IMG/VR virus record: IMGVR_UViG_3300032931_000510
Location: 1-52,494 of that record
DNA length: 52,494 nucleotides
Origin: a virus
Taxonomy: Duplodnaviria > Caudoviricetes
Reading direction: 5' to 3' (one strand)
The translations under genes and the position numbers were made by a program. The number at the start of each line of letters is the position of its first letter. Positions within the stretch are counted from its first letter, which is position 1. The notes beneath the pieces were generated by a model. The model searched no databases, was not told the origin of the DNA, and saw only the letters and a program-made list of their open reading frames with translations. Shown in pieces: positions 6,349 through 46,055 of this stretch.

Positions 6349-6349
6349 G

Positions 6350-7351: not shown

Positions 7352-7361
7352 TGAGAGGCTC

Positions 7362-10019: not shown

Positions 10020-10684
10020 GATTTGACGATGTACCATCCCTCATTGCTTACAGTCACCACTTTGCTCGGATCGGGGAAGAAGGTCTTCACGGCCTGTTGG
10101 ATGGTCGGGAGGTTCCAATCATGTCCGGCAAAGATTCCGCCCGGCCTGATGTGATCCCAATACAAGGTAAAATCCTTCATGACGCCTTCGAACGAATGAT
10201 CCCCATCTACGAAAATGAAATCCAGCAAAGACGATTGGGTCAAAAATTCTGTGGCAAACTGTTCACTGGTCTGATACCGTAATTGGGCGCGTGTACCATA
10301 GGCCGACAATCGCTGGAGGGCATCACCCTTCATACAGGCCTGGCGTTCCTCACTCATCATGGTCCCGTTCCAATCAATAAATGAGGGATAATGATCGATA
10401 CAATACAGCGTCTCAAGAGACGGCAGTTCTTTGAGGAACAACTCCGCACTAAACCCTAGGCAGGTCCCAATTTCCGCCCCTACAACCGGCGCAATTGACT
10501 TGAGCGGGTCGATCAGCCCTGAAGCTGAGATGTGATTCACGCCCCACTCAATTTGCTTCTGGACCCATTCTACTGGGGGCAAATGATGAAAGGGATCGGT
10601 TGATCCTGGTACCGGTCCTCCGGTGGCGCTATCGACCTCTCGGACAACCCCTCTGACGGTATCAATAATGAATGCTTCTCCCAT
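10016..10684 (-). CDS. Class I SAM methyltransferase (Methyltransf_24-like)
   Basis: [34 protein letters not shown] before ATG 10684. Confidence 0.8.
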
Positions 10685-10694
10685 AATCAATCTC

Positions 10695-13508: not shown

Positions 13509-13542
13509 GATTACCTCACAGGTTCATTATGTAACTAACACT

Positions 13543-13550
13543 TATTTATC
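13543..13550 (-). promoter_or_regulatory. Late-promoter-like box GATAAATA heading the sugar island
   Basis: 7/8 match to TATAAATA about 35 nt upstream of ATG 13508. Overlaps the upstream TAA stop. Confidence 0.5.
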
Positions 13551-27808: not shown

Positions 27809-28216
27809 TTAGACGGTCTTTTTCCCGATGGTATACTTGACGACCAACTGCCATTGAGATTTTTCCCGATGGGGAATGATGCGAATTTGATGGAGGGGTG
27901 CGAAGTTGCCCGCACAGATGGCCGGATTCAGAATGGTGCAGAGATGCCATTCTTCCAAGAGACGGGCAATGGCATTGCGCCGACCTAGATCAGCGAGATC
28001 CAGATTGGTCTCTTTGCCATCCAAGGCGAATAATTCCTTGAAATGAAGAATCGCATACCGTCCTTGTTTGTGGAGAATATGGCAGGATTGATAGAGGGTA
28101 AGGTCTTTGGTGGAGGCCACGCCTATACGGGTAAGAGTTTCTCGAATTTTTAAAAAGGCATCAGGATCAGGAAGAGAAATTTCAACTCCAGTTCCTTTGA
28201 AAATATCATACGACAT
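27809..28216 (-). CDS. regA: Translational repressor RegA
   Basis: FLKIRETLTRIGVAS, LYQSCHILHKQGRY, HFKELFALDG. Confidence 0.96.
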   Translation of the reverse strand: MSYDIFKGTGVEISLPDPDAFLKIRETLTRIGVASTKDLTLYQSCHILHKQGRYAILHFKELFALDGKETNLDLADLGRRNAIARLLEEWHLCTILNPAICAGNFAPLHQIRIIPHREKSQWQLVVKYTIGKKTV

Positions 28217-28802
28217 AAGAGCACCTATATCCCTTATGTTGGTATTCTTTTCCTCTGGCGACTTGTATCATTCTTCCTTGGTTGAGTGAATATTCTCGAC
28301 AAAATTGGCTCATATTTGTAATGATAGAGGAATTTCCGGTTGGAAATATGATTCTGAACTGTTTAGATGTCGCAATCGCATGATTTATGTTATGTTCTTC
28401 TGTTCTTGGTGGTTTTCTTTTTCCCTTTAGTCCCTTTGATATTTTTTCTTTATGTTCTTTTGAGTGGGGACCATATTTCTTGCCAAGCTTGGCTAAGGAT
28501 AAATTTTGACAATGTGACTTACTCTTTATCCTACCTTTATTAGTTTCTCCTCCTTTTTTGGCTGATTCGGAAACAGCCTCTTCGTGCCCGACAATTCCAG
28601 ACAAAGCCAACCAAGCTAAGCGGTCTTGCCATCGACCGAATCGTTCGTAAAGTTGTTTGTGTGCGAGCGAGTGTTGTTCCACTGTCAAGTGGATTATGTT
28701 CGAATCGTCGTCTGAGCCGCCGGCGTGCCTAGGAAGAATGTGGTGTTTATGTAGGGGGGTAGAGGGTAATTGGGTTTGCATCGGTACAGTCACTTTCTTC
28801 AT
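28206..28802 (-). mobile_element. Free-standing HNH homing endonuclease with NUMOD3-like repeats
   Basis: HKHHILPRHAGGSDDDSN...H...H; HSKEHKEKISK; AT-rich; GATAAATA box at 28822-28829. Confidence 0.85.
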
Positions 28803-28824
28803 AAAAAGTCACGATACCATGTAT

Positions 28825-29229
28825 TTATCCTTTGGGGTTTTTTGCGACACCTCCGGTATCACAGAATTGCATGATCGACAGGAGAGCATCAGGAGAGAGG
28901 ATGGCCATGGCGTCTTTGGCCTTGAGCGGGGAATACCCAAACACCTTTTGGATATTGGTCAGGGTCGCATGGACCTCAGGCTTGACGGACTTGATAAACG
29001 GTCGTTTGGTGCGCCGAATCGTCTGAAACAGATAATCATGCTGCATCCGTGGTTCCAGATGATACCGTTGATTCATATCCTGGACAAACGAGAGGCAATC
29101 GTAGTGGTAGGACATGGCCTTATTCATCAGGAACGGGATATACGACTTTTCGTTCGTGGCATCCTGCTCCATCAGATTGACTTTGGTGCTCTGGATGCTT
29201 TTGACAAAATCAAAGGGGTTACCCATCAA
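28825..29229 (-). CDS. 62: Clamp loader small subunit gp62
   Basis: NPFDFVKSI, YIPFLMNKAMS, FGYS..KA; position between 44 and regA. Confidence 0.9.
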   Translation of the reverse strand: MMGNPFDFVKSIQSTKVNLMEQDATNEKSYIPFLMNKAMSYHYDCLSFVQDMNQRYHLEPRMQHDYLFQTIRRTKRPFIKSVKPEVHATLTNIQKVFGYSPLKAKDAMAILSPDALLSIMQFCDTGGVAKNPKG

Positions 29230-29782
29230 TTTTCTCCATGATTCTATATCCTTTATTTCTATAAAATAACTTTGTTATTGGAGAAATTCTTGTCATATTA
29301 CCAATATCAAGGCCATGAATTTTACAATAGTTATATAAACTGATAATAACGTCTATATTTCCTTGTGGATTCAATATTCTCCATCGTTTGGCAGCATTAA
29401 GATTCCCTCTTTTACCTAAACTTTGATGGTGTCTCGCCGTCATTGATAGTGTTCTACCAGAAAGCTTTCTGCTAATCTTCCCTCTTATTTCCGGGGTTCT
29501 TTCTCTGGAAACATGATCCCAACCACCATCACCACCATTCTTCATATTATAGGAATGTGGCCCTAAAGTCACCAATTGTTTTTCTTTGGTAAACATCTCT
29601 TCAGAGGAAGAGGCTTCAACCAAAATGTCTTTTTTGAAATTTTCTGCCCCATATTTCTTGACGGCTCGTTTGATAAGCTTACCTGAGCCCATGTATCCAT
29701 CGTCTTTATTCTGGGTCTTGTGGCAACCGATGTAAGTCTTGCCGTTCAGAACATTTGTAATTTGATATACAAGATAATACAT
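29219..29782 (-). mobile_element. Free-standing GIY-YIG (Seg-like) homing endonuclease
   Basis: VYQITNVLNGKTYIG, YMGSG, KYGAENF, YN...GG; AT-rich. Confidence 0.88.
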
Positions 29783-29783
29783 G

Positions 29784-30740
29784 CTATAGAAATTCACAAC
29801 TGACCATCAATTCTGTCAAGGCCGCCATCAGACAAATCTCTTGATCGGCCGAGAACGAATGCTTATACTGATAATCGGCAATCAACAGCACCGCTTGGGG
29901 TATCGACGCAGGTTTCAGAATGACATACAAGGAATCATACAGCTTTCGATAGAAGGTGATCGGATCAATATCGGTGGAGGCGACCCAGGATCTCAAGGCC
30001 CCAAAATCTTTGGACTTCAGATGCGTCACGGCTTCCTGGATGGCGATATCGCCGATCTGTGCCAGGATGCCAGTATCGATCTTCCCAAATTGAGCATACC
30101 GTTGCAATTCATTTAAGACGCGCCGAAAGTCGGGGAAATGCTTCTTCAACAGTTCGGCAATGACTGCCGGCTCATGTTCGACCTTCTCGGTCTTGAGGAT
30201 GGTAATGACCCGCTTGAAGAATGATTTGGCCATGGCTTCTTTTTCAGAAGTCTTGAGCGCAAAATCAATCACCGCACACCGAGAATGGAGCGGCTCAATG
30301 ATGCGATGCTTGAAGTTGGCCGTGAAGATGAACGAACAATGCCCAGAAAATTCCTCAATGGCATTACGCAGGGCCGGCTGGATGGAGTTAGGATTCAGAT
30401 AATCCGCTTCATCCAGGATGATGACTTTTCGCCCACCTGAGAGGGACATGGCCGAGGCATACTGCTTGATCTTGGTCCGAAACACATCAATACCCGATTC
30501 GTCGGAACTGTTGATGACCATGTAATCCAGACCGATCTCTTTACACATCGCTTTGGCAATCGTGGTCTTCCCGACCCCGGCACCGCCTGCCAATAAGAGA
30601 TTAGGGATCTGCTTCTGATTCACGTATTCTTGAAACGGAACTTTGAGACGTTCTGGTAGAATACAGTCGGCCACCGTCTGGGGTCGATACTTTTCGACCC
30701 AGAGAAGATGGGACATATCCGCACTGTCAAAATTTGTCAT
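29784..30740 (-). CDS. 44: Clamp loader large subunit gp44
   Basis: WVEKYRP, GGAGVGKTT, ILDEAD, LHSRC, FPDFRR. Confidence 0.95.
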   Translation of the reverse strand: MTNFDSADMSHLLWVEKYRPQTVADCILPERLKVPFQEYVNQKQIPNLLLAGGAGVGKTTIAKAMCKEIGLDYMVINSSDESGIDVFRTKIKQYASAMSLSGGRKVIILDEADYLNPNSIQPALRNAIEEFSGHCSFIFTANFKHRIIEPLHSRCAVIDFALKTSEKEAMAKSFFKRVITILKTEKVEHEPAVIAELLKKHFPDFRRVLNELQRYAQFGKIDTGILAQIGDIAIQEAVTHLKSKDFGALRSWVASTDIDPITFYRKLYDSLYVILKPASIPQAVLLIADYQYKHSFSADQEICLMAALTELMVSCEFL

Positions 30741-31535: not shown

Positions 31536-31564
31536 AGTATAACACAACTAGAGGGAAATGTCAA
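31536..31564 (-). promoter_or_regulatory. sigma70-type promoter TTGACA-17-TATACT (extended -10)
   Basis: Read directly; heads 45-44-62-regA. Confidence 0.8.
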
Positions 31565-32211
31565 GAGGAGGCTGTGGTACGAAGATGGCCTTCAGGTCCG
31601 CGAAGGTGTGCGACCAGAATCTCGACCCCCTTCGTGAGATCGTCGAGGCTACCATCATTCACTAAGGTAATGTCCATCGGTTGGCCGACCCATGCCGTTT
31701 CTGATGGATGGATACCGAAGGCATCCAAGGCATCTTGATGTTCTTTGGTAGGATCAAGATTGGCAGCACGGGCGACTTCATACCATACAGGTAGTGGTCC
31801 ACGCCGGACATGCACGATCACACCACCTTCTTTATGGATACCCTCCACTTCATTCACAAATCGGCAGTCAGTCACGACCACCTCTCGACCCTGGGCCCGT
31901 TTGAACAAGGAGGCGGTCCAGATATCAGGATGGATGCCGTTACGGCAGGCTTCGGTACCAAGGAGCTGAAGTGCCATGCGAGGAGTAAAAGGTTTACCAA
32001 ATGACTGGGACCAAAATTCATCAAGTTCTTCGCGCCACTCACGGGATTCTTTGGTCGCCCCTTCAAGGAGGGTACGGTCCCAACCAAAGATACTCGCGGC
32101 CGCGTCTTTGAGAGGCGCCGCAAACGAATCCTTCACGAATCCATGCTGGGCTAGGATGTTGCCTACAGTTCCCTTGCCCGCTCCGATCAGACCAACTAAA
32201 CCTATAATCAT
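31561..32211 (-). CDS. Deoxynucleoside monophosphate kinase (T4 gp1-like)
   Basis: GLIGAGKGT, SFAAPLKD, PRMALQLLGTE, DCRFVNE, HPSE. Confidence 0.9.
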   Translation of the reverse strand: MIIGLVGLIGAGKGTVGNILAQHGFVKDSFAAPLKDAAASIFGWDRTLLEGATKESREWREELDEFWSQSFGKPFTPRMALQLLGTEACRNGIHPDIWTASLFKRAQGREVVVTDCRFVNEVEGIHKEGGVIVHVRRGPLPVWYEVARAANLDPTKEHQDALDAFGIHPSETAWVGQPMDITLVNDGSLDDLTKGVEILVAHLRGPEGHLRTTASS

Positions 32212-35305: not shown

Positions 35306-36526
35306 TTAAATTGTCGCATCCAGAGGTGATTCCTCTGTCGGCACCGCCGTAGGTGCCGCTGGGACCTCTTCCGGCATGACCGTCGGGTCGATCTTGGTAT
35401 ACATATCTAAGAAGGCCACATTGGTCTCCCGATCAAAGCGGTTCAGGCAATAGCCAATTGCTTTCATCCGATCACCGAAGATCCCATAGGCGCGGGTAAT
35501 ATGGACCAAGCGCCGAGTAGAGATCACTTCATTACAGCCCTGTTCCTCAAAGGTTCGGCGAATCGTCGTGGCCCAGGTGACCAGATACTCCGCGAATTGA
35601 TCGTCGGCACGGCCAGCACTCACCAATTCCTTTCGGACGATCTTGCGCTCCACCGCTTCAGGCGCCCAATCCTGTTCCAAGGTAATCGGGAACCGCTCAA
35701 GAAACGCCTCGTTGAGGATATTCGTAAACATATATCGGCCGTCCTCAGACCCCTTGCCTTTGGTATTCGCGGTTGCAATGACCGTGAAGCCCGCAAACGG
35801 GGTGACCACTTCGTTCTTCTTCTTCAGCAAGAACGGTTTCCCTTCAAGCACTCGCTGAAGGCAGGACAAATTCTGGGCGCCATAATCGATTTCATCGATC
35901 AACAGCACCGCACCATGACGCGCGGCCACCGTGACCGGACCATCACGCCAGACCATCTGATTATCGAGCAACACAAAGTTGCCGAGCAGATCGCTTTCAT
36001 CGGTATCCGGCGTCATAGACACACACACAAATTTCCGTTTGACCTGGGCACAAATCTGTTCGATAGACATCGACTTGCCGTTGCCAGAATGTCCAGTGAT
36101 AAACACCGGATAAAACTCGCCCGATTCGATGATCGAACGGAGATCGTGATAATTCCCAAAGGGAATATAATTGGGATAGGGTTTCGGTACCAGGTTCGAT
36201 GATTCTAGATCGGTCACCAATGACTGAATGCGAGGACCAGACACCACAGACAGCGGCCGCGTGACGGCTTCAACGGTATCCACGGTCGGCTGAGCCTTCG
36301 GCTGAGCCTGCGTCACAGACTTGGCCCCGGCAGCCGTCTTATGAAACGGGTTCTTATACAAACCACGCTTGACTCGGCACTCAGGATCTTTCGTAAACCA
36401 TTGGGGGACCTTGACTGCATTTTGTTCGCACAATGCCGTCAGATCATCCAAGGAAATCGTCGGTTCGACTAATTCGCTTAACAGGGCCACAATTTTATCT
36501 CTAGAACTATTCTTGGTCACTTGCAT
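35306..36526 (-). CDS. CobS/MoxR-like AAA+ ATPase
   Basis: GHSGNGKS, LLIDEID, ATANTKGKGS, NEAFLERF, ISTRRL. Confidence 0.9.
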   Translation of the reverse strand: MQVTKNSSRDKIVALLSELVEPTISLDDLTALCEQNAVKVPQWFTKDPECRVKRGLYKNPFHKTAAGAKSVTQAQPKAQPTVDTVEAVTRPLSVVSGPRIQSLVTDLESSNLVPKPYPNYIPFGNYHDLRSIIESGEFYPVFITGHSGNGKSMSIEQICAQVKRKFVCVSMTPDTDESDLLGNFVLLDNQMVWRDGPVTVAARHGAVLLIDEIDYGAQNLSCLQRVLEGKPFLLKKKNEVVTPFAGFTVIATANTKGKGSEDGRYMFTNILNEAFLERFPITLEQDWAPEAVERKIVRKELVSAGRADDQFAEYLVTWATTIRRTFEEQGCNEVISTRRLVHITRAYGIFGDRMKAIGYCLNRFDRETNVAFLDMYTKIDPTVMPEEVPAAPTAVPTEESPLDATI

Positions 36527-36562
36527 TCTCCTTGTTTGAAACTCGTCAATCTCTATAGTGTA

Positions 36563-36591
36563 ATTATCGCATAACCCCTCAGAAATGTCAA
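36563..36591 (-). promoter_or_regulatory. sigma70-type promoter TTGACA-17-GATAAT (extended -10)
   Basis: Read directly from the sequence. Confidence 0.75.
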
Positions 36592-36605
36592 CACAAAAGA
36601 CTCAG

Positions 36606-36623
36606 ATTAGAGGATTATAATGT
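36606..36623. repeat. 18-bp element ATTAGAGGATTATAATGT, copy 1
   Basis: Identical to 39019-39036. Confidence 0.9.
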
Positions 36624-36647
36624 GCTGACATTTCAAAGAGTTACGCA

Positions 36648-38969
36648 TTATCTCGCAATTTTCTCAATGAACCGCGAGACCAGGATTCGATTGCTATACT
36701 TGGCTTTGCCCTGCTTGATAAACGCTTGCGACAACTTACGGGCCGTCACGGTGCCCTTGATCGTGATCGCGGCATCCTTCACGACCAGCGAGTCTCCATC
36801 AGGCAGCAGATAGAATCGATCATAGCCTGAGGTCCAGCTTTCCAAGAACTTTTCGCTCTTGAGCCGCTTGGCCAAGACCTTTGATTGCAGCATCAATAGT
36901 CTTCGTGCCTCTCGGGTGTGGAATTGCCCGACGGTGCCGGTGGCACCCTTTTCCGGTACATAGTATTGGACAATATCCGACGAGGTGCCACCGATAAAGA
37001 ACCCGTAAATCCCGATCCCACAGGATTTTCTCAAGAGATTCATGAGGCCACAGGTCGTGGCACGATAGCCATCAGAGGCCATCAACATCACTTGGGTGTT
37101 ATCCGCTGGATTGCGAAGATAGACCCGCTCACGGTCACTATTAAAACGAGTTGAGTGATTATCAAGATCAACATAACTCGTGGTATGATTGGCATCGCCA
37201 TCATGCACAATCACCAGATTCACCAGGTCCAATCGTCGGGCCGTCTTGAATTCCTTAATGATCGGCAACATGGCCACCAAGGCTTCATCCAATGGTGTGC
37301 TATCCAACGATTCTTCGGGTAACTCCGTCAAGATATCCTGGTTATACATGTGATTATTGGCATTATTATGATGGGGGTTATATGATGGATACTTGTGATT
37401 GGAATACGCTTCCGCCAAGGCCAATTGATTCATCATCGCCTGTGTGAACTGTTGCCCCTGCATATTCGAATTAATGATCTCCCTCAGGCCCAGGGTACCC
37501 ATCGTCAAGGTACCGGGAATCTTCTCAAACGAATGTGTGGCAGGGAGATATCGGTTATCGCTCTTTCGGTCCGCTACCCCATAGGCAACAAACGGGATAT
37601 TGACCTTCCGGCAAAAGCTTGCCAGAATAAGGATCTGCTCGATGGCACCCTTCATCTGGTTCCGCATCGAACCAGACTTATCTAACAATAACACCAGACC
37701 GTGACTCTTGCCCTGTTGTAAGGTCGTGATCTTCTTGAAAATACTATCCTCGGTCCGAAACAAGCCCAGTTTCGACATATTGATATCGCCCGAGTCTGCC
37801 ACTTTAGCCCGGATGAACTTCTTGGCCGCTTTCTTCATTTCGAATTCTTTGACCATCGTATTGATATACGACTGGTTTTTCTCTTGAAATTGCACCAATA
37901 ATTCATGTGATCGCTGGGTGTTATTGAGCACCCTCGTCAACTTCTCATTGACCACTTTTTGTGAGGTGACCACATTCTTGATATTCACCGTAGGGATATC
38001 AATATAGCGGGTCATGGGCGCATCTTTGGCATTCAACAGATGTTCGTTGGCTCGAAACGCTTCCTCGGTTTTTGCAGAAGGAACAAATTCCTCACTGGAT
38101 TCGCCCCCAGTACCGTCAGCATCTTTCTTACCTTTTTCGTCGCCATCTTCGTCTTCGCCATCTTCGTCGCCGTCCTCGTCGCCATCTTCGTCTTCGCCAT
38201 CTTCGCCATCTTCGCCATCTTCGCCATCTTCGTCTTCGCCATCTTCGTCTTCGCCATCTTCGCCGCCTTCTTCGCCGTCTTCATCTTCGTATTCGTCTCC
38301 GGCCTCTTCTTCGTCGCCCTCTTCTTCGTCGCCCGACAAGCTATCGGACATATCCTGCATCTTTTGCTTTTTATTGTCGCGGTCTTCCTGTTGTTCTTTT
38401 TTCGAGTATTCCCAAATTTTATCAGTGGCATCGAGGACATCGGCCCATGATTCCGCTTTCTCGACCAGCGCCAACAAGGCCCGTTCTTGTGTGTTGAACC
38501 GAATATTCATCGCAAACCCCATTTTGCAATGGAGATTAATACGATCAATAAAAAACAGGGTGGAAGTATCGGTGCCCTTGACTTTGAACAAATCCCGTTC
38601 ATGGAGCGTATTGTACGCCTTGATAAACGGTCTCCGCAAGCCGGGGTACTGTCTCTTGATAAGCTTTTCGATACGGGCATCCTCAACGATATTGAGAAAA
38701 TGCTTATAGGATTGCTGCCGCTTGGTCTGACCCGTGATGGCCGAATGCCATCCAGCAAACGGGGTATTTCTGGCATGGGAAATTTCATGGCCGAGCAACA
38801 TATCGTACATATCGCCATCCATGGCTTCCCATACCGGACAATTCAAGACCCGATTTTTGAGATCAAAGGAGGCGGTACTGAGTTTCGGGTTATGCTCAAC
38901 CCGGATGTTCTCGGTGGCCAGTAATTTTGCGAGGAGTGATTTCGATTCAATCTGTGTGTTATTCATCAT
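36648..38969 (-). CDS. CobT-like protein: N-terminal HExxH metallopeptidase-like domain, acidic linker, VWA domain
   Basis: LAKLLATEN, GHEISHA, NIVEDARIE, LDKSGSM (MIDAS), STPL, HDGD. Confidence 0.85.
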   Translation of the reverse strand: MMNNTQIESKSLLAKLLATENIRVEHNPKLSTASFDLKNRVLNCPVWEAMDGDMYDMLLGHEISHARNTPFAGWHSAITGQTKRQQSYKHFLNIVEDARIEKLIKRQYPGLRRPFIKAYNTLHERDLFKVKGTDTSTLFFIDRINLHCKMGFAMNIRFNTQERALLALVEKAESWADVLDATDKIWEYSKKEQQEDRDNKKQKMQDMSDSLSGDEEEGDEEEAGDEYEDEDGEEGGEDGEDEDGEDEDGEDGEDGEDGEDEDGDEDGDEDGEDEDGDEKGKKDADGTGGESSEEFVPSAKTEEAFRANEHLLNAKDAPMTRYIDIPTVNIKNVVTSQKVVNEKLTRVLNNTQRSHELLVQFQEKNQSYINTMVKEFEMKKAAKKFIRAKVADSGDINMSKLGLFRTEDSIFKKITTLQQGKSHGLVLLLDKSGSMRNQMKGAIEQILILASFCRKVNIPFVAYGVADRKSDNRYLPATHSFEKIPGTLTMGTLGLREIINSNMQGQQFTQAMMNQLALAEAYSNHKYPSYNPHHNNANNHMYNQDILTELPEESLDSTPLDEALVAMLPIIKEFKTARRLDLVNLVIVHDGDANHTTSYVDLDNHSTRFNSDRERVYLRNPADNTQVMLMASDGYRATTCGLMNLLRKSCGIGIYGFFIGGTSSDIVQYYVPEKGATGTVGQFHTREARRLLMLQSKVLAKRLKSEKFLESWTSGYDRFYLLPDGDSLVVKDAAITIKGTVTARKLSQAFIKQGKAKYSNRILVSRFIEKIAR
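38138..38335. repeat. Degenerate tandem repeat encoding an (E/D/G)-rich linker
   Basis: Repeated TCGCCATCT/TCGTCT units; translates as EDGEDEDG... Confidence 0.9.
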
Positions 38970-39173: not shown

Positions 39174-40772
39174 CTAGACCGGCTTCTGGAAGACATACAG
39201 CGGTTCATATTTGAGGTACAAGCCATTAGACTTGCAAAAGTTACGAGTTTTGGGGATTCCCGTTTCGGTATCGCGCCGATTGCCGCCTGGCATCGATGCC
39301 AAGGCCATCTTATACTTTTTCTTGAATGTGAGACCATACTGAGCAAACAACTGACAGGAATCCGATTCTAGCGGTAGAACCTCACCACTGAATTCAGCAT
39401 CGGCGATATTCCAGACCACATAGCCTCCAGGTCGAAGCCATTGGGCAATCGTCTTGATGGTTTCCTCAAGAAATTCCGTCTTCCATGCCGCATACCCCGT
39501 AAACTTGATACAGGATTGCTCAGGATCTTCTGAATAGCGTTCCTTGGAGAAGTACGGAGGACTGGTAAAGACCAAACTCACCTTCCCTTTGTATTGCTGG
39601 AAGGCGGGATCAAACTGCATCATTTCAGATCCAAGCTGCCAGAACTTGAAGTCATTATGAGGAATCGCCCACAGGCCACTCCGTAGCACATGGGTCCGAT
39701 AGAAATCATATATCTCGTGGTATTTCGTCCGTCCTGGGGTCGTGTTATGGTCGGTATTGGGATCATTACCCAGATAGGTCAGATGCCGAGTATCGTCGGC
39801 CGACAGGGCCCCCACCAAACGACCGCCCCAGCCGCTCGACGGGTCCCAGACGATAATGTTCTCGTCCTTTCGAAAGTCTTTGGTAAAGGTATCATAGATC
39901 CACTTGGCAATCGGTGGGGGAAAATTCACGGCGTACTGACTAAAGGAAATCCGAAAGGACTTGAATCCTACAGGAAACAACTGTTGCCCTTTTTGATAAA
40001 TCCGAATACGATAGGACTCAGACCGTTCCCAATCAATGTTGGTACGACACTGAGACGGAATCAGCTCGCCTAGTGATTCGATCTCTGTCCGAGTGATGGC
40101 CAGTTGTTGGACGGTTTTCAGGGCGTCGTTGTGTCCGGTATAGCCTTGTTCGTCATCAAACGGTCCGAGCCAATAATCCACACCATGATCCCGTTTCCGA
40201 TAATCGTGTTCAAATTGACGAATCCAATCCACCGCTGTCTCGGCCGTGGGATACTGTTCATACTGGACCAGATCATTCGGTTGTGCCGGGACGGAATAGT
40301 GATAAAACGAATCGCGCTTGAAATGTCGTGTGGCATAGGTCACAAACCGATCCAACAATTCATCTTGCACAAAAAAGTCATAGATCGAACGACCTGAACC
40401 GGCATCCTTGGTATAATTGATTCGGGTCTTCAGCATCGTCGGAAAGAATTGATTGACGGCATTCCCCAAACGCGAGGAGATACGAATCACATCGAGTTCA
40501 TTCGTCAGTTCATCCTTCACTAGAATCGTCTTGTTCTTGGTGTCCAGATAGGTGAAATCGTGAAGTTCCTGGAATTGCCTACACAGTTCTTCCATTGGGG
40601 CCCCAGCGACCGGAGGCTGCCCCTCATGATCCCAGAGATGGACCACCAACTTTCGGAGATCAATGATCCACTGACGAAACTCATCGGTCGTCATGACCAA
40701 GACTTGATCGAAGGTGATATTGATCGGTGAGTTGAGGAATTGGGCATTCTTTTCATAGAAATATTGTGTCAT
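39174..40772 (-). CDS. Large SAM-dependent DNA amino-methyltransferase-like protein
   Basis: WDPSSGWGGR (motif I-like), FTSPPYF (motif IV), LRPGG, YEP. Confidence 0.8.
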   Translation of the reverse strand: MTQYFYEKNAQFLNSPINITFDQVLVMTTDEFRQWIIDLRKLVVHLWDHEGQPPVAGAPMEELCRQFQELHDFTYLDTKNKTILVKDELTNELDVIRISSRLGNAVNQFFPTMLKTRINYTKDAGSGRSIYDFFVQDELLDRFVTYATRHFKRDSFYHYSVPAQPNDLVQYEQYPTAETAVDWIRQFEHDYRKRDHGVDYWLGPFDDEQGYTGHNDALKTVQQLAITRTEIESLGELIPSQCRTNIDWERSESYRIRIYQKGQQLFPVGFKSFRISFSQYAVNFPPPIAKWIYDTFTKDFRKDENIIVWDPSSGWGGRLVGALSADDTRHLTYLGNDPNTDHNTTPGRTKYHEIYDFYRTHVLRSGLWAIPHNDFKFWQLGSEMMQFDPAFQQYKGKVSLVFTSPPYFSKERYSEDPEQSCIKFTGYAAWKTEFLEETIKTIAQWLRPGGYVVWNIADAEFSGEVLPLESDSCQLFAQYGLTFKKKYKMALASMPGGNRRDTETGIPKTRNFCKSNGLYLKYEPLYVFQKPV

Positions 40773-41170
40773 AGCGGCAATGTCCCTGCGGTGGTTGTGG
40801 TATTGGAATGGTTGAAGTGTTGGATCAGTAGCTTATGTGTCTTGGCGCGTCTGAGCATGTCCTTGGTGCCCTTGGACTGGGCGAGATCATCATGGAAGGC
40901 AAAGACGAGATCCGGTTGACCCTCATCGATCATCTGTTGATTGCGAAGTGGTCCCGCGATTTTTCCATGATCTTCCCAACGGGCGCGATATTCGAGATAG
41001 GGGATCGTGTGAATCTGTGCGACCTGACGGGCACAGGAATCCGCACCCGTGGCACCACCTTCAATAATCATCGAGGGTTGATACCAGAGGAGTATCCGCT
41101 CGATCATCTCAAAGTCGGTCCAGTTTCGATCACCACAGACCAGGATGCGTTTGTGCTTATTAAAAATCAT
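40769..41170 (-). CDS. SLOG-family (YspA/DUF2493-like) protein
   Basis: ILVCGDR, EGGATGAD, AGPLRNQQM, SKGTKDM. Confidence 0.85.
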   Translation of the reverse strand: MIFNKHKRILVCGDRNWTDFEMIERILLWYQPSMIIEGGATGADSCARQVAQIHTIPYLEYRARWEDHGKIAGPLRNQQMIDEGQPDLVFAFHDDLAQSKGTKDMLRRAKTHKLLIQHFNHSNTTTTAGTLPL

Positions 41171-41175
41171 AGGAC

Positions 41176-41204
41176 AGTATAACACAGATCAACAGAAAAG
41201 TCAA
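41176..41204 (-). promoter_or_regulatory. sigma70-type promoter TTGACT-17-TATACT (extended -10)
   Basis: The -10 box ends 5 nt before ATG 41170. Confidence 0.75.
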
Positions 41205-42037
41205 GAGGCCACATTCCATATCAAGACCGTTTCAGGTCGGTCGTGTGTCTTGTACCACTCAATCATGGGACGCCAGACCTTGGCATCGTAGGTGGGGGCG
41301 GAAGGAAACGGAGGGGCATCACAGGATTTGACGGGGCGATCAAACTTATAGGGGGAACGATGATGGATGGCCCGACCGATTTCCCGTTCTTTCATGGCAT
41401 GACCTACCGAGACCACATGGATTTCTGAATAGGGCCATGCCAGTTGGAGGCCTCGATTCAAGGTACCTGATGATCCGACGGTCCATACATGCTCAGGGGT
41501 AAAGGGAATTTGTCGCCGCGCCACTTTCATGATACTGACCAGCACCGAAGGATGTTCCAGTCCGATAGGTAAGAGGACTCGATTGGTAGGGTTCGCTTGC
41601 TGATATTCACGGGCCCGGGCATTCGTCACATTGAGCATTCCATCCTTGATCCAATGATACTGGGCACCAAGTTCAAGACCTCGTTTTTGATACTCGGTAT
41701 AGTTTTCAGGATCGCGCTTGGCCATAAAGAGATGGACAGACTTTCCATATCGAGAGGCCACGACCGGCAAACTGATCTGAGCATAGCCTGTAGCCGGGCA
41801 GGAACCAAAGACAATCTCCTGTTCGGGCATAGTCCGAATGAGATAATCCACAAACCGTATCTTGGAACCATAACCCAAGAGATCGTCGCGCACAACCTGG
41901 TAGCCCTCATGCTCAATAATTTGAATGGATGGATTCGGGTCCGTCCAGGCAGTGTGTCGCATTTCTTCGAACATATTATCAATCATATTATCAATCATAC
42001 TAAATGGGGGATTCGGGTCAGACCACTGATTATTCAC
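41201..42037 (-). CDS. Fold-type II PLP-dependent enzyme
   Basis: VVRDDLLGYGSKIR (PLP lysine), WTVGSSGTL (phosphate loop), TYDAK, LIWNVA. Confidence 0.75.
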   Translation of the reverse strand: MNNQWSDPNPPFSMIDNMIDNMFEEMRHTAWTDPNPSIQIIEHEGYQVVRDDLLGYGSKIRFVDYLIRTMPEQEIVFGSCPATGYAQISLPVVASRYGKSVHLFMAKRDPENYTEYQKRGLELGAQYHWIKDGMLNVTNARAREYQQANPTNRVLLPIGLEHPSVLVSIMKVARRQIPFTPEHVWTVGSSGTLNRGLQLAWPYSEIHVVSVGHAMKEREIGRAIHHRSPYKFDRPVKSCDAPPFPSAPTYDAKVWRPMIEWYKTHDRPETVLIWNVAS

Positions 42038-42581
42038 TTTTAAGTAAAACCCACCCTTTGGATTTTCCTTTAATTATTGGTCGCTGTAGACGGAAGGATT
42101 TCAATAATGCTTGATGGTATATGCCATGCTCCTTACAAAATCTGACGATTGATCCAATGATGGAAAATTGATGCCCATTTGGGGATTGGATTAGGAAAGT
42201 TTTTGCGTTATGATTGCTACTCCCTGTATATCTTCCTACCTTGGCGTCCCGCATTTTCTGTCTTGTTTGTTCTGACGGGTTCAATTGACCTATTCCTCCC
42301 GAATTCGAATTATACCCTTTTGGTGCCAAGCTACCATGATGAACGATTAACTCCTTTTCTTTGGTGAAGGCCTCCCCTTCCTCCTCACACTCGAAAATGC
42401 TCTCAATGGTGAATTCGTCCTTGCTGTGTTTCCGTAAAGCATTATGGAAATAAAAATCATACACATTACAACGGGCATCCTTTAGATGTTGTTGCCATCT
42501 CATGAAAAGTGACCTTTTCGTGACTCCTATATACACCTTTGATGAAGGAATGTGGGTGACTTTATATAGGGTATACATCAC
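42030..42581 (-). mobile_element. Free-standing GIY-YIG homing endonuclease with NUMOD3-like motif
   Basis: LYKVT...VYIGVT...RWQQH, GYN...GG, SEQTRQKMR; AT-rich. Confidence 0.85.
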
Positions 42582-43722
42582 TTATCATTTTTTCTAATTT
42601 GGGGGTCACCACAACATCACATACTAAATGGATTCTCTCTTCTGTGCCATGGTTTATCACACGGTGGGGTTTTCTTGTATCTAGTATCCAACATTCTCCG
42701 AACCCGAAGTGATACTCTTCTTGTTCATCGTTTCCGTTCCAGGTACTAAAGAGGACTTTATCGTTTGTTCTTAGAGGGAAGTGCAAGCGGGCGAGGGCGC
42801 CAAGTGTGTTGCCAGCATCCGTATCAACTTGATCCGTGTGGCGATAAATCTCTCCACCACCTGGGGTCACCTTCATTAGTCTGACCCGGTGCACTTCCCC
42901 ATCTAAAAAGGAAAGGAGTTCGCGCACCTCAGGAAATTGTTCATACAAATATGTATCTTGGAGCGCAAACTGCTCATGTTTATGTTCCTCCGCCCACTTA
43001 TCATTCATTTCTGATGGTTTGGTAATAAAACTAGGATCAGGAGAATACCCTCTGAGGCTCAAAGCTGACCATGCCCTGTCTCTGTTATAGTTTGAGTAAT
43101 GGGCAGTATAGTTCAACTTGAGGGAGTCAATCTTCTGAAGAATACCGACAAGTAAGGTGCAGTCCACTGGGCGAATCTTCGCCATGCCGACCAGATCGGC
43201 TATGGAGACTTTGGGATGTTGTCGGGGTCCAAAACTTGATGCAGCCGAGTCCCGAAAGTACACGGCCGTGATTTCAGCAAACGAGGAGACTTTATAGCCT
43301 ATTCTCTTGAATCCATTCTCTTCTGCCAGGGTACAGATATCCTTTTGTCCCGCATAACAGGTGAGCCAGGTGTTCTCTTCGACAAAGACCCAGAGTAGAG
43401 ACCTGAATAAGTCATTCAACCCCTGTGGGGTGGCACAGAGATGGGAAATGGTGCAGTCCCCTTTCATCTTTTCCCCGATCACGGTCTTGCCGTGCATCAC
43501 GATCTTGCTGGGCATCTTCGCACGTTTGGAGACATAGCAGGCGTCGATATGCTGATCGGAACCCCCACGGATGACAGACAACCCACCCAGATGAAGTTGC
43601 TGGGCCACATTGTTCTTTTTGAATTTCCCAAAGGGCGACAGTGCATGGGCATTATAGGGAGCATAGAAGGCCTCAATCTCCTTGAGGAGATCCATCTGAA
43701 CCCCATGTTGCCAGTCTTTCAT
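42562..43722 (-). CDS. Fusion: GNAT-like N-terminal domain + aspartyl/asparaginyl beta-hydroxylase-like 2OG-Fe(II) oxygenase
   Basis: C-terminal RVRLM...IYRHTD...RLHFPL...DTRKPHRVIN...RIHLVCD (HxD...H, R). N-terminal ISHL...WLTC...ENGFKRIG resembles GNAT motifs A/B (weaker call). Confidence 0.7.
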   Translation of the reverse strand: MKDWQHGVQMDLLKEIEAFYAPYNAHALSPFGKFKKNNVAQQLHLGGLSVIRGGSDQHIDACYVSKRAKMPSKIVMHGKTVIGEKMKGDCTISHLCATPQGLNDLFRSLLWVFVEENTWLTCYAGQKDICTLAEENGFKRIGYKVSSFAEITAVYFRDSAASSFGPRQHPKVSIADLVGMAKIRPVDCTLLVGILQKIDSLKLNYTAHYSNYNRDRAWSALSLRGYSPDPSFITKPSEMNDKWAEEHKHEQFALQDTYLYEQFPEVRELLSFLDGEVHRVRLMKVTPGGGEIYRHTDQVDTDAGNTLGALARLHFPLRTNDKVLFSTWNGNDEQEEYHFGFGECWILDTRKPHRVINHGTEERIHLVCDVVVTPKLEKMISDVYPI

Positions 43723-43726
43723 GATC

Positions 43727-44329
43727 TTAGACTTTCTGTGCCTGCTTGAGTTCCGTGATTCGCGCAATCTTCTTGAGCATCTTATCGCGTTTCTTCTTGG
43801 CCATGCTCAGGGTCAGCGTTCCGACCAGGGAGGTAAAGACAATGCCATTCAGATGATCCAGTTCATGACAGAACACCCGGGCCGTCAGGCCACTGAATCG
43901 CGCCTTCTGTGGGGCACCAAAGATATCATACCATTGGACATCAATCCAATCGGGTCGCGTCACAGGGAGATAGAGATAGGGGAAGGTCAAACACCCTTCG
44001 CGCTCACGATTGGTCGTCTCAGACTTCCCACAAATTTCGGGGTTGATGCAGGCCGTCACGGTCTCGCCGGTCATGACAAACATTCGCAGTTTCAGTCCCA
44101 CCTGATTCGCGGCCAGACCCATACCACCATGCTTGAGCATCGTGGCTTCCATGCGCTTGACGATATCCTTGAGTTGTTCAATCGACAGATTGGAATGCAC
44201 AAAATCGTATTCCGACAACCGATCTGCCAGATGGGGATTTTTATGATTGAAGACAGGCAAGGGCTCATAGGTCTTGATGGTGTTGGTGCCTGTGTTGATG
44301 GTCATGATGGAAGGGGTGGTCGTATCCAT
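43727..44329 (-). CDS. def: Peptide deformylase
   Basis: GMGLAANQVG, EGCLT, HELDHLNG. Confidence 0.95.
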   Translation of the reverse strand: MDTTTPSIMTINTGTNTIKTYEPLPVFNHKNPHLADRLSEYDFVHSNLSIEQLKDIVKRMEATMLKHGGMGLAANQVGLKLRMFVMTGETVTACINPEICGKSETTNREREGCLTFPYLYLPVTRPDWIDVQWYDIFGAPQKARFSGLTARVFCHELDHLNGIVFTSLVGTLTLSMAKKKRDKMLKKIARITELKQAQKV

Positions 44330-44342
44330 AATAAATCTCCGG

Positions 44343-46055
44343 TTAGACGGTCGCGTGGGAAAATCCACTGAGCTTTTTCAGATGAATGATGTGCTTATAT
44401 TTATCAATGAGAATATCTACCCGATGGCTGATAATAAAGACATTGGTGGATTCGAGATTATTAATGATCTTGGACAGTTCATCCACCCCCGCGCCATCCA
44501 AGGAGGAATCGAAAATTTCATCCAGGATCAGGAGATTGGTATTGGCGGAGTTTTTGAGTTTCGCAATGGCCCTCCAGGTGAGTAATAACGCCATATCGAT
44601 CCGTTGTTTTTCACCCTCAGAGAAGGACGCATAGGAGAAGGTATCCCGATGCCGGGATTTGATCGTTTCCTCAAAGGCCTCATTGATCGTAAAGTTCACG
44701 AAAAAATCCATCGCGGCCAAATACTTGTTGACCAGGGTATTGATGATGGGGAGATATTGACGAATGATCTTGGTCTTGATACCTGTATCCTTCAAGAGGA
44801 CAGCGGCCGCTTCATAATAGGATTTCTGCTCGACCAACGATTCCCATTGCGACTTGAGCGCGAGCACCTCGGATTGGAGAAGCTGCAACTTATCCTGTTC
44901 CTTCCCGGTCAATGGGGTCGCCTGTTGAAGGGCCAGGATCTTCTTGTTCAATTCGGTATTAAACCGAAGAATCTCCGTGATGGAGGTATTCCAACCAAAG
45001 CTTTTGTTGTTGTGTTCATGAATCAGGGACACCACATTCGATACCGCTGACAGCTTTTCAATTTCGATACTCAATTTTGTGGTCAGACTTTCCATGGCGG
45101 TATGACAGGCCTGGATTTTCCCTGTCAATGCGGTCTGTTGCTGCCGCTTAAAGGTCTCCTCAAGTGACTGACTGCACATAGGACAGGAATCATTTTTCTG
45201 GAGAAATTGAATATGTTTTTCGTGTTTGGCGACCGTGTTCTCCACTTGCGATTCAATGTGATGGAGTTCCTTCAGACGCTTTTCGACACTAGACTTCTCT
45301 TTGGTCTGAGGTGTCAAGGTATCAATGATCGCATTGGTGTGAGTAATCAATAATTCAAGATTAGCGATAGCCCCTAGGTTCTTGGTCTGCTCCTGCTGAT
45401 ACTGTTGGATCTGGTCTTCGTGATTGGTCATCATGGCCGCCAGATAGGATTGCTGCATCACCACTTTGTCTTTGCCGTTCTCCAGGGACAGCTTGGTGCG
45501 CCCAATCTCTTCTTTATTCCCAGAGAGATGTTCCTTGACGACCTGATTCATCGTGGAGAAAATTTGAATGTCCAAGAGGTCTTCGATCACCGCTCGCCGA
45601 TCCTGTGCAGAGAGTTGCATGAATGGGGTGAAGGAGGCCGATCCCAAGATCACAATCTGGGTAAAGGACTTGAAATTGAATTTGAGGATATACTTTTCGA
45701 GATAATCTTGATAGTCGCGGGTTTCCGCATTCTGATTGAGCAAGGTGCCATCCTTGAAAATTTCAAAGACATTGGGCTTGATACCACGGCGCACCTTATA
45801 CTCGGACCCATCAATGGCAAACTCACATTCGACCAGACAGTCTTTGTTGTTGATTGAGTTGACCAGATTCGGTTTGTTGATCTTCCGAAAGGGGAGACCA
45901 AATATGGCATAACACAGCGCATCCAGAATGGTCGACTTCCCGCTCCCATTGATTCCCACGATCAGGGTGGTTTGATGTACATTCAAGGCCACCTCGGTCC
46001 AGTAATTCCCGGTCGAGAGGAGGTTCTTATAGCGAAGGTGTTTGAAATACAGCAT
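44343..46055 (-). CDS. 46: Recombination endonuclease ATPase subunit gp46 (Rad50/SbcC-like)
   Basis: GINGSGKST, CPMC hook, FSEGEK, LILDE. Confidence 0.95.
   Translation of the reverse strand: MLYFKHLRYKNLLSTGNYWTEVALNVHQTTLIVGINGSGKSTILDALCYAIFGLPFRKINKPNLVNSINNKDCLVECEFAIDGSEYKVRRGIKPNVFEIFKDGTLLNQNAETRDYQDYLEKYILKFNFKSFTQIVILGSASFTPFMQLSAQDRRAVIEDLLDIQIFSTMNQVVKEHLSGNKEEIGRTKLSLENGKDKVVMQQSYLAAMMTNHEDQIQQYQQEQTKNLGAIANLELLITHTNAIIDTLTPQTKEKSSVEKRLKELHHIESQVENTVAKHEKHIQFLQKNDSCPMCSQSLEETFKRQQQTALTGKIQACHTAMESLTTKLSIEIEKLSAVSNVVSLIHEHNNKSFGWNTSITEILRFNTELNKKILALQQATPLTGKEQDKLQLLQSEVLALKSQWESLVEQKSYYEAAAVLLKDTGIKTKIIRQYLPIINTLVNKYLAAMDFFVNFTINEAFEETIKSRHRDTFSYASFSEGEKQRIDMALLLTWRAIAKLKNSANTNLLILDEIFDSSLDGAGVDELSKIINNLESTNVFIISHRVDILIDKYKHIIHLKKLSGFSHATV

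What the first reader, a model, noticed from the sequence alone, without database searches (positions are those of the whole stretch)
39174..43722. Candidate new DNA base-hypermodification pathway: amino-MTase-fold + SLOG + PLP enzyme + GNAT/2OG-Fe(II) oxygenase fusion
Seen: four enzyme genes in a row directly downstream of 47-46-def. They encode a 532-aa SPPY-type MTase-fold protein with a long N-terminal extension, a SLOG nucleotide-binding protein, a fold-II PLP enzyme and a GNAT-like/HxD...H oxygenase fusion. A homing endonuclease sits inside the block. Known: PLP decarboxylases and acetyltransferases tailor amino-acid adducts on hypermodified thymidines in ViI/M6/PaMx11-type phages; 2OG-Fe oxygenases hydroxylate bases and adducts; some MTase-fold enzymes transfer the aminocarboxypropyl arm of SAM rather than a methyl group. 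Inference: no hmdU kinase or amino acid:DNA transferase is visible in this window, so the SAM enzyme itself may add an aminocarboxypropyl group to an exocyclic amine (A-N6 or C-N4), which is then decarboxylated, hydroxylated and/or acetylated. A plain methyl mark would give the PLP enzyme nothing to act on.
Basis: partly seen in the sequence, partly recalled or inferred. Interest (0 to 1): 0.85.

Follow-up and report, generated by a model that had tools for sequence, protein, structure and literature searches.

The report
Phage methyltransferase–oxygenase–PLP enzyme module
An uncultured T4-like phage carries a DNA-methyltransferase-like enzyme that travels with, and in other phages is fused to, two enzymes that normally work on amino acids, which points to an undescribed nucleic-acid modification more complex than methylation.

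Summary
The genes are real and lie where stated. On the minus strand the order is gp47, gp46, def, oxygenase, GIY-YIG endonuclease, PLP-like enzyme, SLOG, then a 532-aa SPPY methyltransferase-fold protein (MT).

Three of the four enzymes form a true module:
- MT, oxygenase and PLP enzyme recur together in at least three kinds of phage genome context and in different gene orders.
- In loci long enough to judge, the oxygenase never lacked the MT (63 clusters with, 0 without, 10 unknown).
- In other phages they are fused into one protein: MT-oxygenase-PLP, MT-PLP, and oxygenase-YunG-like-PLP.

The SLOG gene is facultative. The endonuclease lies in a 622-bp insertion absent from an 80%-identical relative.

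The oxygenase domain is closest to amino-acid hydroxylases: L-proline cis-4-hydroxylase, then Cpz10, which hydroxylates a SAM-derived side chain on a nucleoside. The PLP enzyme is fold type II, so the proposed decarboxylation is unlikely. The GNAT label is unproven.

Related PLP domains sit inside DNA methylase genes of cultured phages (Erythrobacter phage vB_EliS_R6L, Microcystis phage Mae-JY30).

My best reading, at about 0.4, is a SAM-derived amino-acid adduct on a base amine, then tailored. The main rival is plain methylation, with the two helper enzymes processing SAM or SAH. Only chemistry can decide.

The parts
39174..40772 (-). MT: a 532-aa protein. The C-terminal class I amino-methyltransferase domain (about 285-532) has motif I DPSSGWGGR (about 310-318) and motif IV TSPPY (403-407). 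The conserved N-terminal extension of about 280 aa has no known fold match.
   Evidence: PF01555, 28.8 bits. Alignment A1 shows invariant residues along the whole length. AF2 model pLDDT 80. The best BFVD match is N4-cytosine DNA methyltransferases, E 7e-12. PDB gives only generic class I MTases. TSPPY occurs in 118 of 118 unique full-length relatives.
40769..41185 (-). SLOG-superfamily protein of the YAcAr family, 138 aa. It is a facultative occupant of the slot between def and MT.
   Evidence: PF10686, 48.8 bits; phrog_289. Present in 11 MT clusters, absent in 24, unknown in 32. It occurs with or without the oxygenase and the PLP gene.
41201..42037 (-). Fold-type II PLP-like enzyme. The conserved core runs from about 41201 to 41947. 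The first 30 or so codons of the ORF lie inside the endonuclease insertion.
   Evidence: phrog_7093, 1.7e-33. PALP in 7 of 19 relatives. Invariant K59 and S189-S190-G191. Atlas PALP clusters score 0.95. Insertion boundary.
42030..42581 (-). Free-standing GIY-YIG homing endonuclease, within a 622-bp insertion (41948-42569).
   Evidence: PF01541 and phrog_314. Absent from relative L004, where oxygenase and PLP genes abut.
42562..43722 (-). Two-domain protein of 386 aa. The N-terminal alpha/beta domain (about 1-200) is of uncertain kind. The C-terminal domain is a 2OG/Fe(II) oxygenase of the AspH / proline-hydroxylase type, with H295-x-D297 and H365.
   Evidence: PF05118. AF2 model pLDDT 91. Foldseek: 4p7w L-proline cis-4-hydroxylase E 1.3e-12, then 7v4f Cpz10 7.7e-10. 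Invariant residues.
43727..44368 (-). Peptide deformylase. This is flanking context, not part of the module.
   Evidence: PF01327, 1.1e-35. It was next to the module in most loci that carry gp46/gp47, but not in most loci of the other contexts.
35306..38969 (-). CobS-like AAA+ ATPase (35306-36526) and a 773-aa vWA/CobT-like protein (36648-38969). These are downstream context.
   Evidence: AAA_5, CbbQ_C and a weak CobS match. They follow the MT in many loci of the gp46/gp47 context only.

Best explanation
MT, oxygenase and PLP enzyme are one phage-specific modification module. It is anchored on a SAM-binding enzyme of the DNA amino-methyltransferase type.

The proposed sequence of events:
1. 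The MT flips out a base and uses its SPPY pocket to present an exocyclic amine (A-N6 or C-N4) to SAM.
2. It installs a group that still carries the amino-acid end of SAM, a 3-amino-3-carboxypropyl type adduct, rather than a bare methyl.
3. The oxygenase, an amino-acid hydroxylase type, hydroxylates that side chain.
4. The fold-II PLP enzyme then performs an elimination or replacement step on its alpha-amino-acid end. Decarboxylation is not expected from this fold.

The likely purpose is to protect phage DNA from host nucleases. SLOG and the YunG-like gene are optional additions, and the endonuclease is a selfish insertion.

Shown:
- The genes are real and functionally linked, and the three domains occur fused in one protein.
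- The enzyme classes are as stated, and the catalytic motifs are conserved.

Inferred: the DNA target, the nature of the transferred group, the order of steps and the biological role.
For: Linkage:
- In loci long enough to judge, the oxygenase had the MT within 6 kb in 63 clusters, lacked it in 0, and was unknown in 10. For PLP the counts with MT were 38, 3 and 12.
- The trio recurs outside the gp46/gp47 context in other orders: MT-oxy-x-PLP (L192, L212, L181), oxy-x-PLP-MT beside sugar-nucleotide genes (L199), and around a family B DNA polymerase (L223).

Fusions:
- Of the 34 listed PLP-family representatives of at least 340 aa, 13 also match the MT profile and 3 the oxygenase profile. Two of these are MT-oxygenase-PLP triple fusions, of 1081 and 1138 aa.
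- The fusions recur on separate contigs and in separate sources. The MT-PLP fusion P0244 is on 14 contigs of up to 217 kb.
- They keep SPPY, the PLP lysine motif and SSGT.

MT type:
- PF01555. Fusion relatives also match Eco57I and N6_N4_Mtase.
- The best viral structural matches are N4-cytosine DNA methyltransferases.
- Distant relatives in cultured phages sit beside dCMP deaminase, DHFR and thymidylate synthase.
- The PLP family lies inside or next to ParB / N6_N4 DNA methylase genes in cultured phages.

Amino-acid chemistry:
- The oxygenase's closest structures are L-proline cis-4-hydroxylase and Cpz10. Cpz10 beta-hydroxylates a four-carbon amino-acid side chain on a uridine nucleoside, a chain proposed there to come from SAM (PMC9814697, abstract and passages).
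- The PLP enzyme belongs to the PALP fold.

Presence pattern: among 30 MT-seeded clusters there were 9 with oxygenase+PLP, 9 with oxygenase only, 3 with oxygenase+SLOG, 2 with all three, 2 with SLOG only, 2 with none, 2 with a C-terminal-only oxygenase and 1 with PLP+SLOG. This fits the MT making the substrate for either tailoring enzyme.
Against: - No chemistry was tested, and nothing shows that the MT transfers anything other than methyl.
- Its SAM-binding and SPPY motifs look like those of ordinary methyltransferases.
- The same PLP family is fused to a different methyltransferase type. The authors of the phage vB_EliS_R6L paper call the ORF1 domain CcrM-like. It is unlikely that all these enzymes have switched to aminocarboxypropyl transfer, so a role tied to SAM or SAH in general would explain the association more simply.
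- PLP occurs without MT or oxygenase in 3 clusters with 6-kb flanks, and stands alone in 6 clusters, some of them on short loci.
- MT-only phages exist.
- IMG's automatic name for the fusion proteins is 'tRNA1(Val) A37 N6-methylase TrmN6', and PDB structural matches include tRNA m2G enzymes. An RNA target is therefore not excluded.
- The co-occurrence counts pool loci found with all three seeds, so they are not free of ascertainment bias.
Confidence: 0.4

Rival explanations
1. The MT is an ordinary m6A or m4C DNA methyltransferase. The PLP enzyme and oxygenase act on the amino-acid end of the cofactor or its by-product. For example, they could destroy SAH to relieve product inhibition, or remodel SAM, rather than acting on the DNA.
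For: - The PLP family is fused to or adjacent to several different DNA methyltransferase types, including a domain the authors call CcrM-like in vB_EliS_R6L ORF1 and a ParB/N6_N4 gene in Mae-JY30. What these share is SAM and SAH, not a special adduct.
- Both helper enzymes are amino-acid-type enzymes, and SAH and SAM are alpha-amino acids.
- A figure legend of the Cpz10 paper says the enzyme can oxygenate methionine (PMC9814697).
- MT motifs are canonical.
Against: - No fold-II PLP enzyme or AspH-type oxygenase that degrades SAH is known to me (recalled, not searched).
- Two different enzymes for one clearing task is redundant.
- The oxygenase carries an extra conserved N-terminal domain with no obvious role in such a task.
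- MT-only phages manage without the helpers.
Confidence: 0.25
2. The module modifies RNA (tRNA or rRNA) rather than DNA. It would build an amino-acid-bearing base of the kind known in tRNA, such as acp or hydroxylated wybutosine-type side chains.
For: - PDB structural matches of the MT model include Trm11 and TrmN tRNA m2G methyltransferases.
- IMG names the fused proteins TrmN6.
- Recalled: in wybutosine synthesis an MTase-fold enzyme (TYW2) transfers acp from SAM and a 2OG oxygenase (TYW5) hydroxylates it.
Against: - Pfam matches are to DNA methylase families.
- The best viral structural matches are DNA N4-cytosine methyltransferases.
- Partner domains and neighbours are DNA-linked: ParB, DNA polymerase, gp46/gp47 and dCMP deaminase.
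- No tRNA gene lies in the window, though only about 31% of the genome is held.
Confidence: 0.12
3. The enzymes act on a protein or a free metabolite. Examples are glutamine methylation and hydroxylation of a translation factor, suggested by the def neighbour, or synthesis of an unusual amino acid.
For: - The closest solved relatives of the oxygenase act on free proline or on proteins (AspH).
- A weak HemK-family match exists for the MT (E 0.078).
- def lies directly upstream in the window.
Against: - def was not next to the module in most loci of the other genome contexts.
- The MT and its fusion partners match DNA methylase families.
- The family is found on phage contigs beside replication genes.
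Confidence: 0.13
4. The genes are unrelated cargo that has accumulated in a variable region between def and the MT.
For: - The slot is variable. It holds SLOG, YunG-like, vWA-like, small GNAT-like and homing endonuclease genes in different relatives.
- MT-only arrangements exist.
Against: - The same three families occur as fusion proteins.
- The trio also recurs in unrelated contexts and orders.
- The oxygenase never lacked the MT in judged loci.
Confidence: 0.05

Closest known systems
Post-replicative thymidine hypermodification pathways of phages ViI, M6 and PaMx11 (seen only in a search listing: PMC8989533 and PMC11472151; details recalled)
   Same: These are phage-encoded multi-enzyme pathways that put amino-acid-derived groups on DNA bases and tailor them with PLP enzymes. 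They are thought to block host nucleases.
   Different: As I recall them, those pathways start from 5-hydroxymethyluracil, a DNA kinase and a pyrophosphorylase-type transferase, and use decarboxylase-type PLP enzymes. Here the anchor is an amino-methyltransferase-fold SAM enzyme aimed at an exocyclic amine. The PLP enzyme is fold type II. An AspH / proline-hydroxylase-type oxygenase is present.
Caprazamycin/muraymycin nucleoside antibiotic tailoring: Cpz13, Cpz10, Mur23 (PMC9814697; abstract and passages read)
   Same: A four-carbon amino-acid side chain, proposed there to come from SAM, is attached to a nucleoside. It is then either beta-hydroxylated by a 2OG oxygenase (Cpz10) or decarboxylated. 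Cpz10 is the second-best structural match of the window's oxygenase domain.
   Different: The substrate there is a free nucleoside antibiotic intermediate in Streptomyces, not a polymer. Sequence identity to Cpz10 is only 15-17%. No MTase-fold enzyme is named in the passages I read.
Microcin C aminopropylation, MccD/MccE (recalled; not searched or read here)
   Same: An MTase-fold enzyme transfers the aminocarboxypropyl arm of SAM to a nucleotide conjugate. A PLP domain then processes it, and a GNAT domain is fused in the same protein.
   Different: The PLP domain there is a decarboxylase of another fold, the acceptor is a phosphate oxygen, and there is no oxygenase. The GNAT nature of the domain here is unproven.
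Ordinary phage N6-adenine / N4-cytosine DNA methyltransferases (PF01555), including ParB-methyltransferase fusions
   Same: They share the (S/D/N)PPY catalytic motif, a glycine-rich SAM loop and a class I fold.
   Different: The window's MT has a conserved N-terminal extension of about 280 aa with no match. It has obligate-looking partners that handle amino acids, to which it is fused in other phages.

Membership tests
N6/N4 DNA amino-methyltransferases (Pfam PF01555) | Motif IV (S/D/N)PP(Y/F) directly after strand beta-4 | tested here: met
   TSPPY lies at 403-407, after the strand at 398-403 in the model. It is present in 118 of 118 unique full-length relatives.
N6/N4 DNA amino-methyltransferases (Pfam PF01555) | Glycine-rich SAM-binding motif I, and a family score above Pfam's gathering threshold | tested here: met
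   DPSxGWGGR occurs in 94 of 118 relatives by a strict pattern. PF01555 scores 28.8 bits against a cutoff of 26.7, so it is only just met, and only profile positions 1-106 of 221 are matched.
N6/N4 DNA amino-methyltransferases (Pfam PF01555) | Transfers a methyl group to an exocyclic amine in DNA | not testable with these tools
   This needs biochemistry. Structural matches include DNA N4-cytosine methyltransferases but also tRNA methyltransferases.
Fold-type II PLP enzymes (Pfam PF00291 PALP) | Schiff-base lysine near the N-terminus and a glycine-rich phosphate loop | tested here: met
   K59 is invariant within RDDLLxxGSK (85 of 98 by strict pattern), and SSG[TC] occurs in 93 of 98. The lysine also aligns in the cultured-phage relatives. 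Which residue binds PLP is inferred from a recalled motif of ACC deaminase / D-cysteine desulfhydrase.
Fold-type II PLP enzymes (Pfam PF00291 PALP) | Family score above Pfam's gathering threshold | tested here: inconclusive
   The window's protein has no Pfam hit. 7 of 19 relatives match, the best at E 2.7e-4. More distant family members reach 36.5-46.3 bits against a cutoff of 35. There is no PDB sequence match, even with the profile.
2OG/Fe(II) oxygenases of the AspH / proline hydroxylase group (PF05118) | Double-stranded beta-helix fold with an HxD...H iron triad | tested here: met
   PF05118 occurs in 17 of 17 relatives. H295, D297 and H365 are invariant. HTDQ occurs in 92 of 104 by strict pattern. 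Foldseek gives 4p7w at E 1.3e-12.
GNAT acetyltransferases (N-terminal domain of the oxygenase protein) | GNAT fold with an acyl-CoA-binding motif | tested here: inconclusive
   The secondary-structure order in the model is compatible with a GNAT fold by my reading. No Q/RxxGxG/A-type motif is evident in alignment A2. Only weak leads exist: Atlas 0.80-0.81 to clusters partly labelled acetyltransferase, and Acetyltransf_3 in 1 of 17 at E 0.1. The listed Foldseek matches all have the aligned length and description of oxygenase-domain matches, so the N-terminal domain was not resolved.
SLOG superfamily, YAcAr family (PF10686) | Family score above the gathering threshold | tested here: met
   48.8 bits against a cutoff of 28.2. 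Membership of the pathway is not supported.
Known thymidine hypermodification systems (5-hmdU DNA kinase plus amino acid:DNA transferase) | Presence of the kinase and the transferase | not tested
   No dedicated search was made. 38 window ORFs were scanned against Pfam. They include a protein with a P-loop kinase domain (1517-3859) and a T4 gp1-like dNMP kinase (31561-32211), neither examined further. Only about 31% of the genome is held.

The most novel reading that the evidence does not exclude
Many aquatic T4-like phages carry an amino-acid side chain on A-N6 or C-N4 of their DNA, and so do some siphoviruses that have methyltransferase-PALP fusion proteins. The side chain is the 3-amino-3-carboxypropyl arm of SAM, optionally hydroxylated and then remodelled by PLP chemistry. 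It is installed by an enzyme that looks like an ordinary DNA methyltransferase. This would be the first DNA base modification made by alkyl rather than methyl transfer from SAM. It would also mean that some genes annotated 'DNA methylase' do something else.
Probability: 0.3. Interest if true: 0.9.

Novelty: new variant of a known kind. Interest (0 to 1): 0.72.

Why it matters
Phage DNA modifications decide which restriction and other nuclease defences work. They have also supplied tools for biotechnology. All well-described complex phage modifications that I recall start from C5 of pyrimidines or from 7-deazaguanine. A pathway built on an amino-methyltransferase-fold enzyme would open a new chemical class.

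The module is common, so it may affect how metagenomic and long-read data from aquatic phages should be read. Profile scans kept 282, 290 and 196 IMG/VR stretches for the three families, and the PLP family has 1379 representatives at 50% identity.

The question is directly testable, because cultured phages carry the methyltransferase-PALP pairing.

My paper searches found no description of this association. The library lacks most subscription journals, and supplementary files were not consulted.

Tried and rejected
- DNA search of the block against cultured phages found no match. Protein searches found only distant, partial matches for the MT and the oxygenase (3 records).
- PDB sequence searches gave little. 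The MT profile reached only 2zie at E 0.011. The PLP protein and its profile found nothing meaningful. YunG-like and SLOG found nothing.
- Foldseek of the MT model against PDB gave only generic class I methyltransferases at low TM-scores. The N-terminal extension found no match.
- NCBIfam gave no useful names.
- Complex prediction on the MT catalytic domain with the PLP protein gave no verdict, with scores of 0.00 in both runs and controls not run. This is neither for nor against binding.
- The 'YunG' label is below Pfam's cutoff in every case seen (20-26.6 bits against 27), so it is used only as a handle. A paper search for it returned nothing relevant.
- A YunG-like gene or second copies of the three families were sought in the window. 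None was found.
- Rejected: def and the CobS/CobT-like genes as parts of the module. They flank it mainly in the gp46/gp47 context.
- Rejected: SLOG as a required step.

Full report
**What is there**

The window is a 52,494-base IMG/VR virus record, estimated about 31% complete. It carries a T4-type replication and recombination set:
- Family B DNA polymerase, UvsX, a DnaB-like helicase, clamp and clamp loader, UvsW, gp46 and gp47.
- The polymerase is at most 44% identical to any cultured phage. The nearest are cyanomyoviruses.

On the minus strand the order is gp47, gp46, def, oxygenase, GIY-YIG endonuclease, PLP-like gene, SLOG, MT, then a vWA/CobT-like and an AAA+/CobS-like gene. The genes abut or overlap by a few bases, apart from short gaps of 15 bases between the PLP-like and SLOG genes and 4 bases between def and the oxygenase. 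The oxygenase protein starts at 43722 (386 aa), as shown by relatives.

**The individual proteins**

MT:
- It has a full class I methyltransferase domain at its C-terminus.
- It carries DPSSGWGGR and TSPPY, just passes the DNA methylase family PF01555, and has a long N-terminal extension conserved throughout the family.
- Its best viral structural matches are N4-cytosine DNA methyltransferases.
- PDB matches are generic and include tRNA m2G enzymes.

Oxygenase:
- The protein models with high confidence, pLDDT 91.
- Its C-terminal domain is closest to L-proline cis-4-hydroxylase and then to Cpz10.
- Cpz10 beta-hydroxylates a four-carbon amino-acid side chain on a uridine nucleoside. The authors say that chain is proposed to be transferred from SAM (PMC9814697, abstract and passages).
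- The N-terminal domain remains unassigned. GNAT is only a weak lead.

PLP-like protein:
- It has no Pfam hit itself, but it belongs to a large family with the PALP fold.
- 7 of 19 close relatives match PALP, and more distant members score above the curated cutoff. A lysine and a glycine-rich loop are invariant.
- This is fold type II, the fold of dehydratases, synthases and ACC deaminase, not of decarboxylases (recalled).

SLOG: a clear YAcAr member. [quoted passage not shown]

**Do the genes belong together?**

I collected IMG/VR loci seeded separately with profiles of the MT, the oxygenase and the PLP protein. This gave 282, 290 and 196 relatives, with 80 kept each. I labelled all ORFs with profile searches.

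Among 62 MT-seeded loci that hold both def and MT, there were 30 clusters at 90% identity:

| Content between def and MT | Clusters |
|---|---|
| oxygenase + PLP | 9 |
| oxygenase only | 9 |
| oxygenase + SLOG | 3 |
| all three | 2 |
| SLOG only | 2 |
| none | 2 |
| C-terminal-only oxygenase | 2 |
| PLP + SLOG | 1 |

So the four genes are not an obligate set.

The trio is nevertheless linked. The next counts pool all loci and judge absence only where 6 kb of flank is held on both sides:

| Seed → partner | Present | Absent | Unknown |
|---|---|---|---|
| oxygenase → MT | 63 | 0 | 10 |
| PLP → MT | 38 | 3 | 12 |
| MT → oxygenase | 52 | 3 | 12 |
| MT → PLP | 45 | 12 | 10 |
| MT → SLOG | 11 | 24 | 32 |

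These pooled counts are not free of ascertainment bias.

The trio also recurs away from gp46/gp47, in other orders and beside other genes: a radical SAM gene, sugar-nucleotide enzymes, and a DNA polymerase with a chaperonin. In these loci a further small gene often sits between oxygenase and PLP. It weakly resembles Pfam YunG, below the cutoff.

**Fusion proteins**

I searched the PLP profile against 1.84 billion representatives. It found 1379 proteins at E ≤ 0.001.
- Of the 34 listed proteins of at least 340 aa, 13 also match the MT profile and 3 the oxygenase profile.
- These include two MT-oxygenase-PLP triple fusions (1081 and 1138 aa), several MT-PLP fusions and one oxygenase-YunG-like-PLP fusion.
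- The fusions recur on separate contigs and in separate sources. One MT-PLP form is on 14 contigs of up to 217 kb.
- They keep the catalytic motifs.

This is the strongest evidence that the three enzymes act in one process.

More distant PLP-family members lie inside or beside DNA methylase genes of cultured phages:
- Erythrobacter phage vB_EliS_R6L ORF1 has PF01555 plus PALP, and is annotated only as a methylase whose domain the authors call CcrM-like.
- Phage ZS04 has a match under a gene annotated DNA methyltransferase.
- Microcystis phage Mae-JY30 has an N6_N4 methylase gene, annotated ParB/sulfiredoxin, followed by a 236-aa PALP gene.

**The endonuclease**

Compared with an 80%-identical relative, the window has a 622-bp insertion (41948-42569) exactly between the oxygenase and PLP genes. 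It holds the GIY-YIG gene and supplies the first 30 or so codons of the PLP ORF. It is a mobile element, not a pathway part.

**How it most likely works**

Both helper enzymes belong to classes that recognise alpha-amino-acid moieties. The anchor enzyme binds SAM, which carries such a moiety, and presents a planar amine through an SPPY pocket. The presence pattern fits the MT producing something that either helper can use: MT alone, MT with either helper, MT with both, but no oxygenase without MT.

The simplest chemistry that satisfies all this has three steps:
1. Transfer of the aminocarboxypropyl arm of SAM to a base amine.
2. Side-chain hydroxylation.
3. A fold-II PLP elimination or replacement step.

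I put this at about 0.4. The main rival, at 0.25, is ordinary methylation with helpers that process SAH or SAM. It explains better why the PLP family accompanies several unrelated methyltransferase types. RNA (0.12), protein or metabolite (0.13) and unrelated cargo (0.05) follow.

**Comparison with known systems, and novelty**

The logic resembles three known systems: thymidine hypermodification pathways, caprazamycin tailoring, and microcin C aminopropylation. The enzyme set and the proposed acceptor differ from each.

Three paper searches found no description of a methyltransferase-PALP-oxygenase module. The library is incomplete, and supplements were not consulted.

I rate the finding as a new variant of a known kind: a phage nucleic-acid modification system. 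It has a realistic chance of being a new chemical class.

Noticed in passing
window 4392-12652, minus strand: A run of sugar-nucleotide and tailoring genes. It holds a cytidylyltransferase-like gene, three NAD epimerase/dehydratase genes (two strongly GDP-mannose-dehydratase-like), a GHMP kinase, FkbM-type and other methyltransferases and a GT4 glycosyltransferase. It could decorate the host surface, virion proteins or DNA. In locus L199 the MT-oxygenase-PLP module sits beside similar genes.
   Followed up: no
window 1517-3859, minus strand: A 780-aa protein whose middle (355-503) matches the P-loop kinase families Zeta_toxin and AAA_33. Its role is unknown.
   Followed up: no
window 31561-32211, minus strand: A T4 gp1-like deoxynucleotide monophosphate kinase (PF21448) lies next to the clamp gene.
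   Followed up: no
window 28206-29797, minus strand: Two more mobile-endonuclease-like genes, one HNH (weak) and one SegE-type GIY-YIG, lie beside the clamp-loader gene. With the one inside the block, that makes three in this window.
   Followed up: no
window 41948-42037 compared with 41900-41947: The N-terminal extension of the PLP ORF (…QWSDPNPPFSMI…) resembles the conserved start of the PLP core (…AWTDPNPSIQII…). This looks like a partial duplication of the insertion site of the homing endonuclease.
   Followed up: partly
loci L192 9438-9926, L199 9444-9914, L212 9436-9909, L223 5938-6414; also L074, L078, L092: A conserved gene of about 156 aa, weakly YunG-like and below Pfam's cutoff, lies between the oxygenase and PLP genes. 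It is fused to the PLP domain in several metagenome proteins. It is absent from the window.
   Followed up: partly
13 locus clusters, e.g. L091 15258-15743, L105, L138: A dCMP-deaminase-like gene recurs close to the MT. A distant MT relative in Vibrio phage 2.058.O also lies next to dCMP deaminase, DHFR and thymidylate synthase.
   Followed up: no
loci L189, L203, L222 (about 10728-13900) and L223: Some phages carry two full-length MT paralogues in tandem, or one full-length and one catalytic-domain-only copy. All have SPPY.
   Followed up: no
window 36648-38969, minus strand: The 773-aa CobT-like protein contains a long acidic, low-complexity run rich in D, E and G. It follows the MT in many loci of the gp46/gp47 context, together with a CobS-like AAA+ gene.
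   Followed up: no
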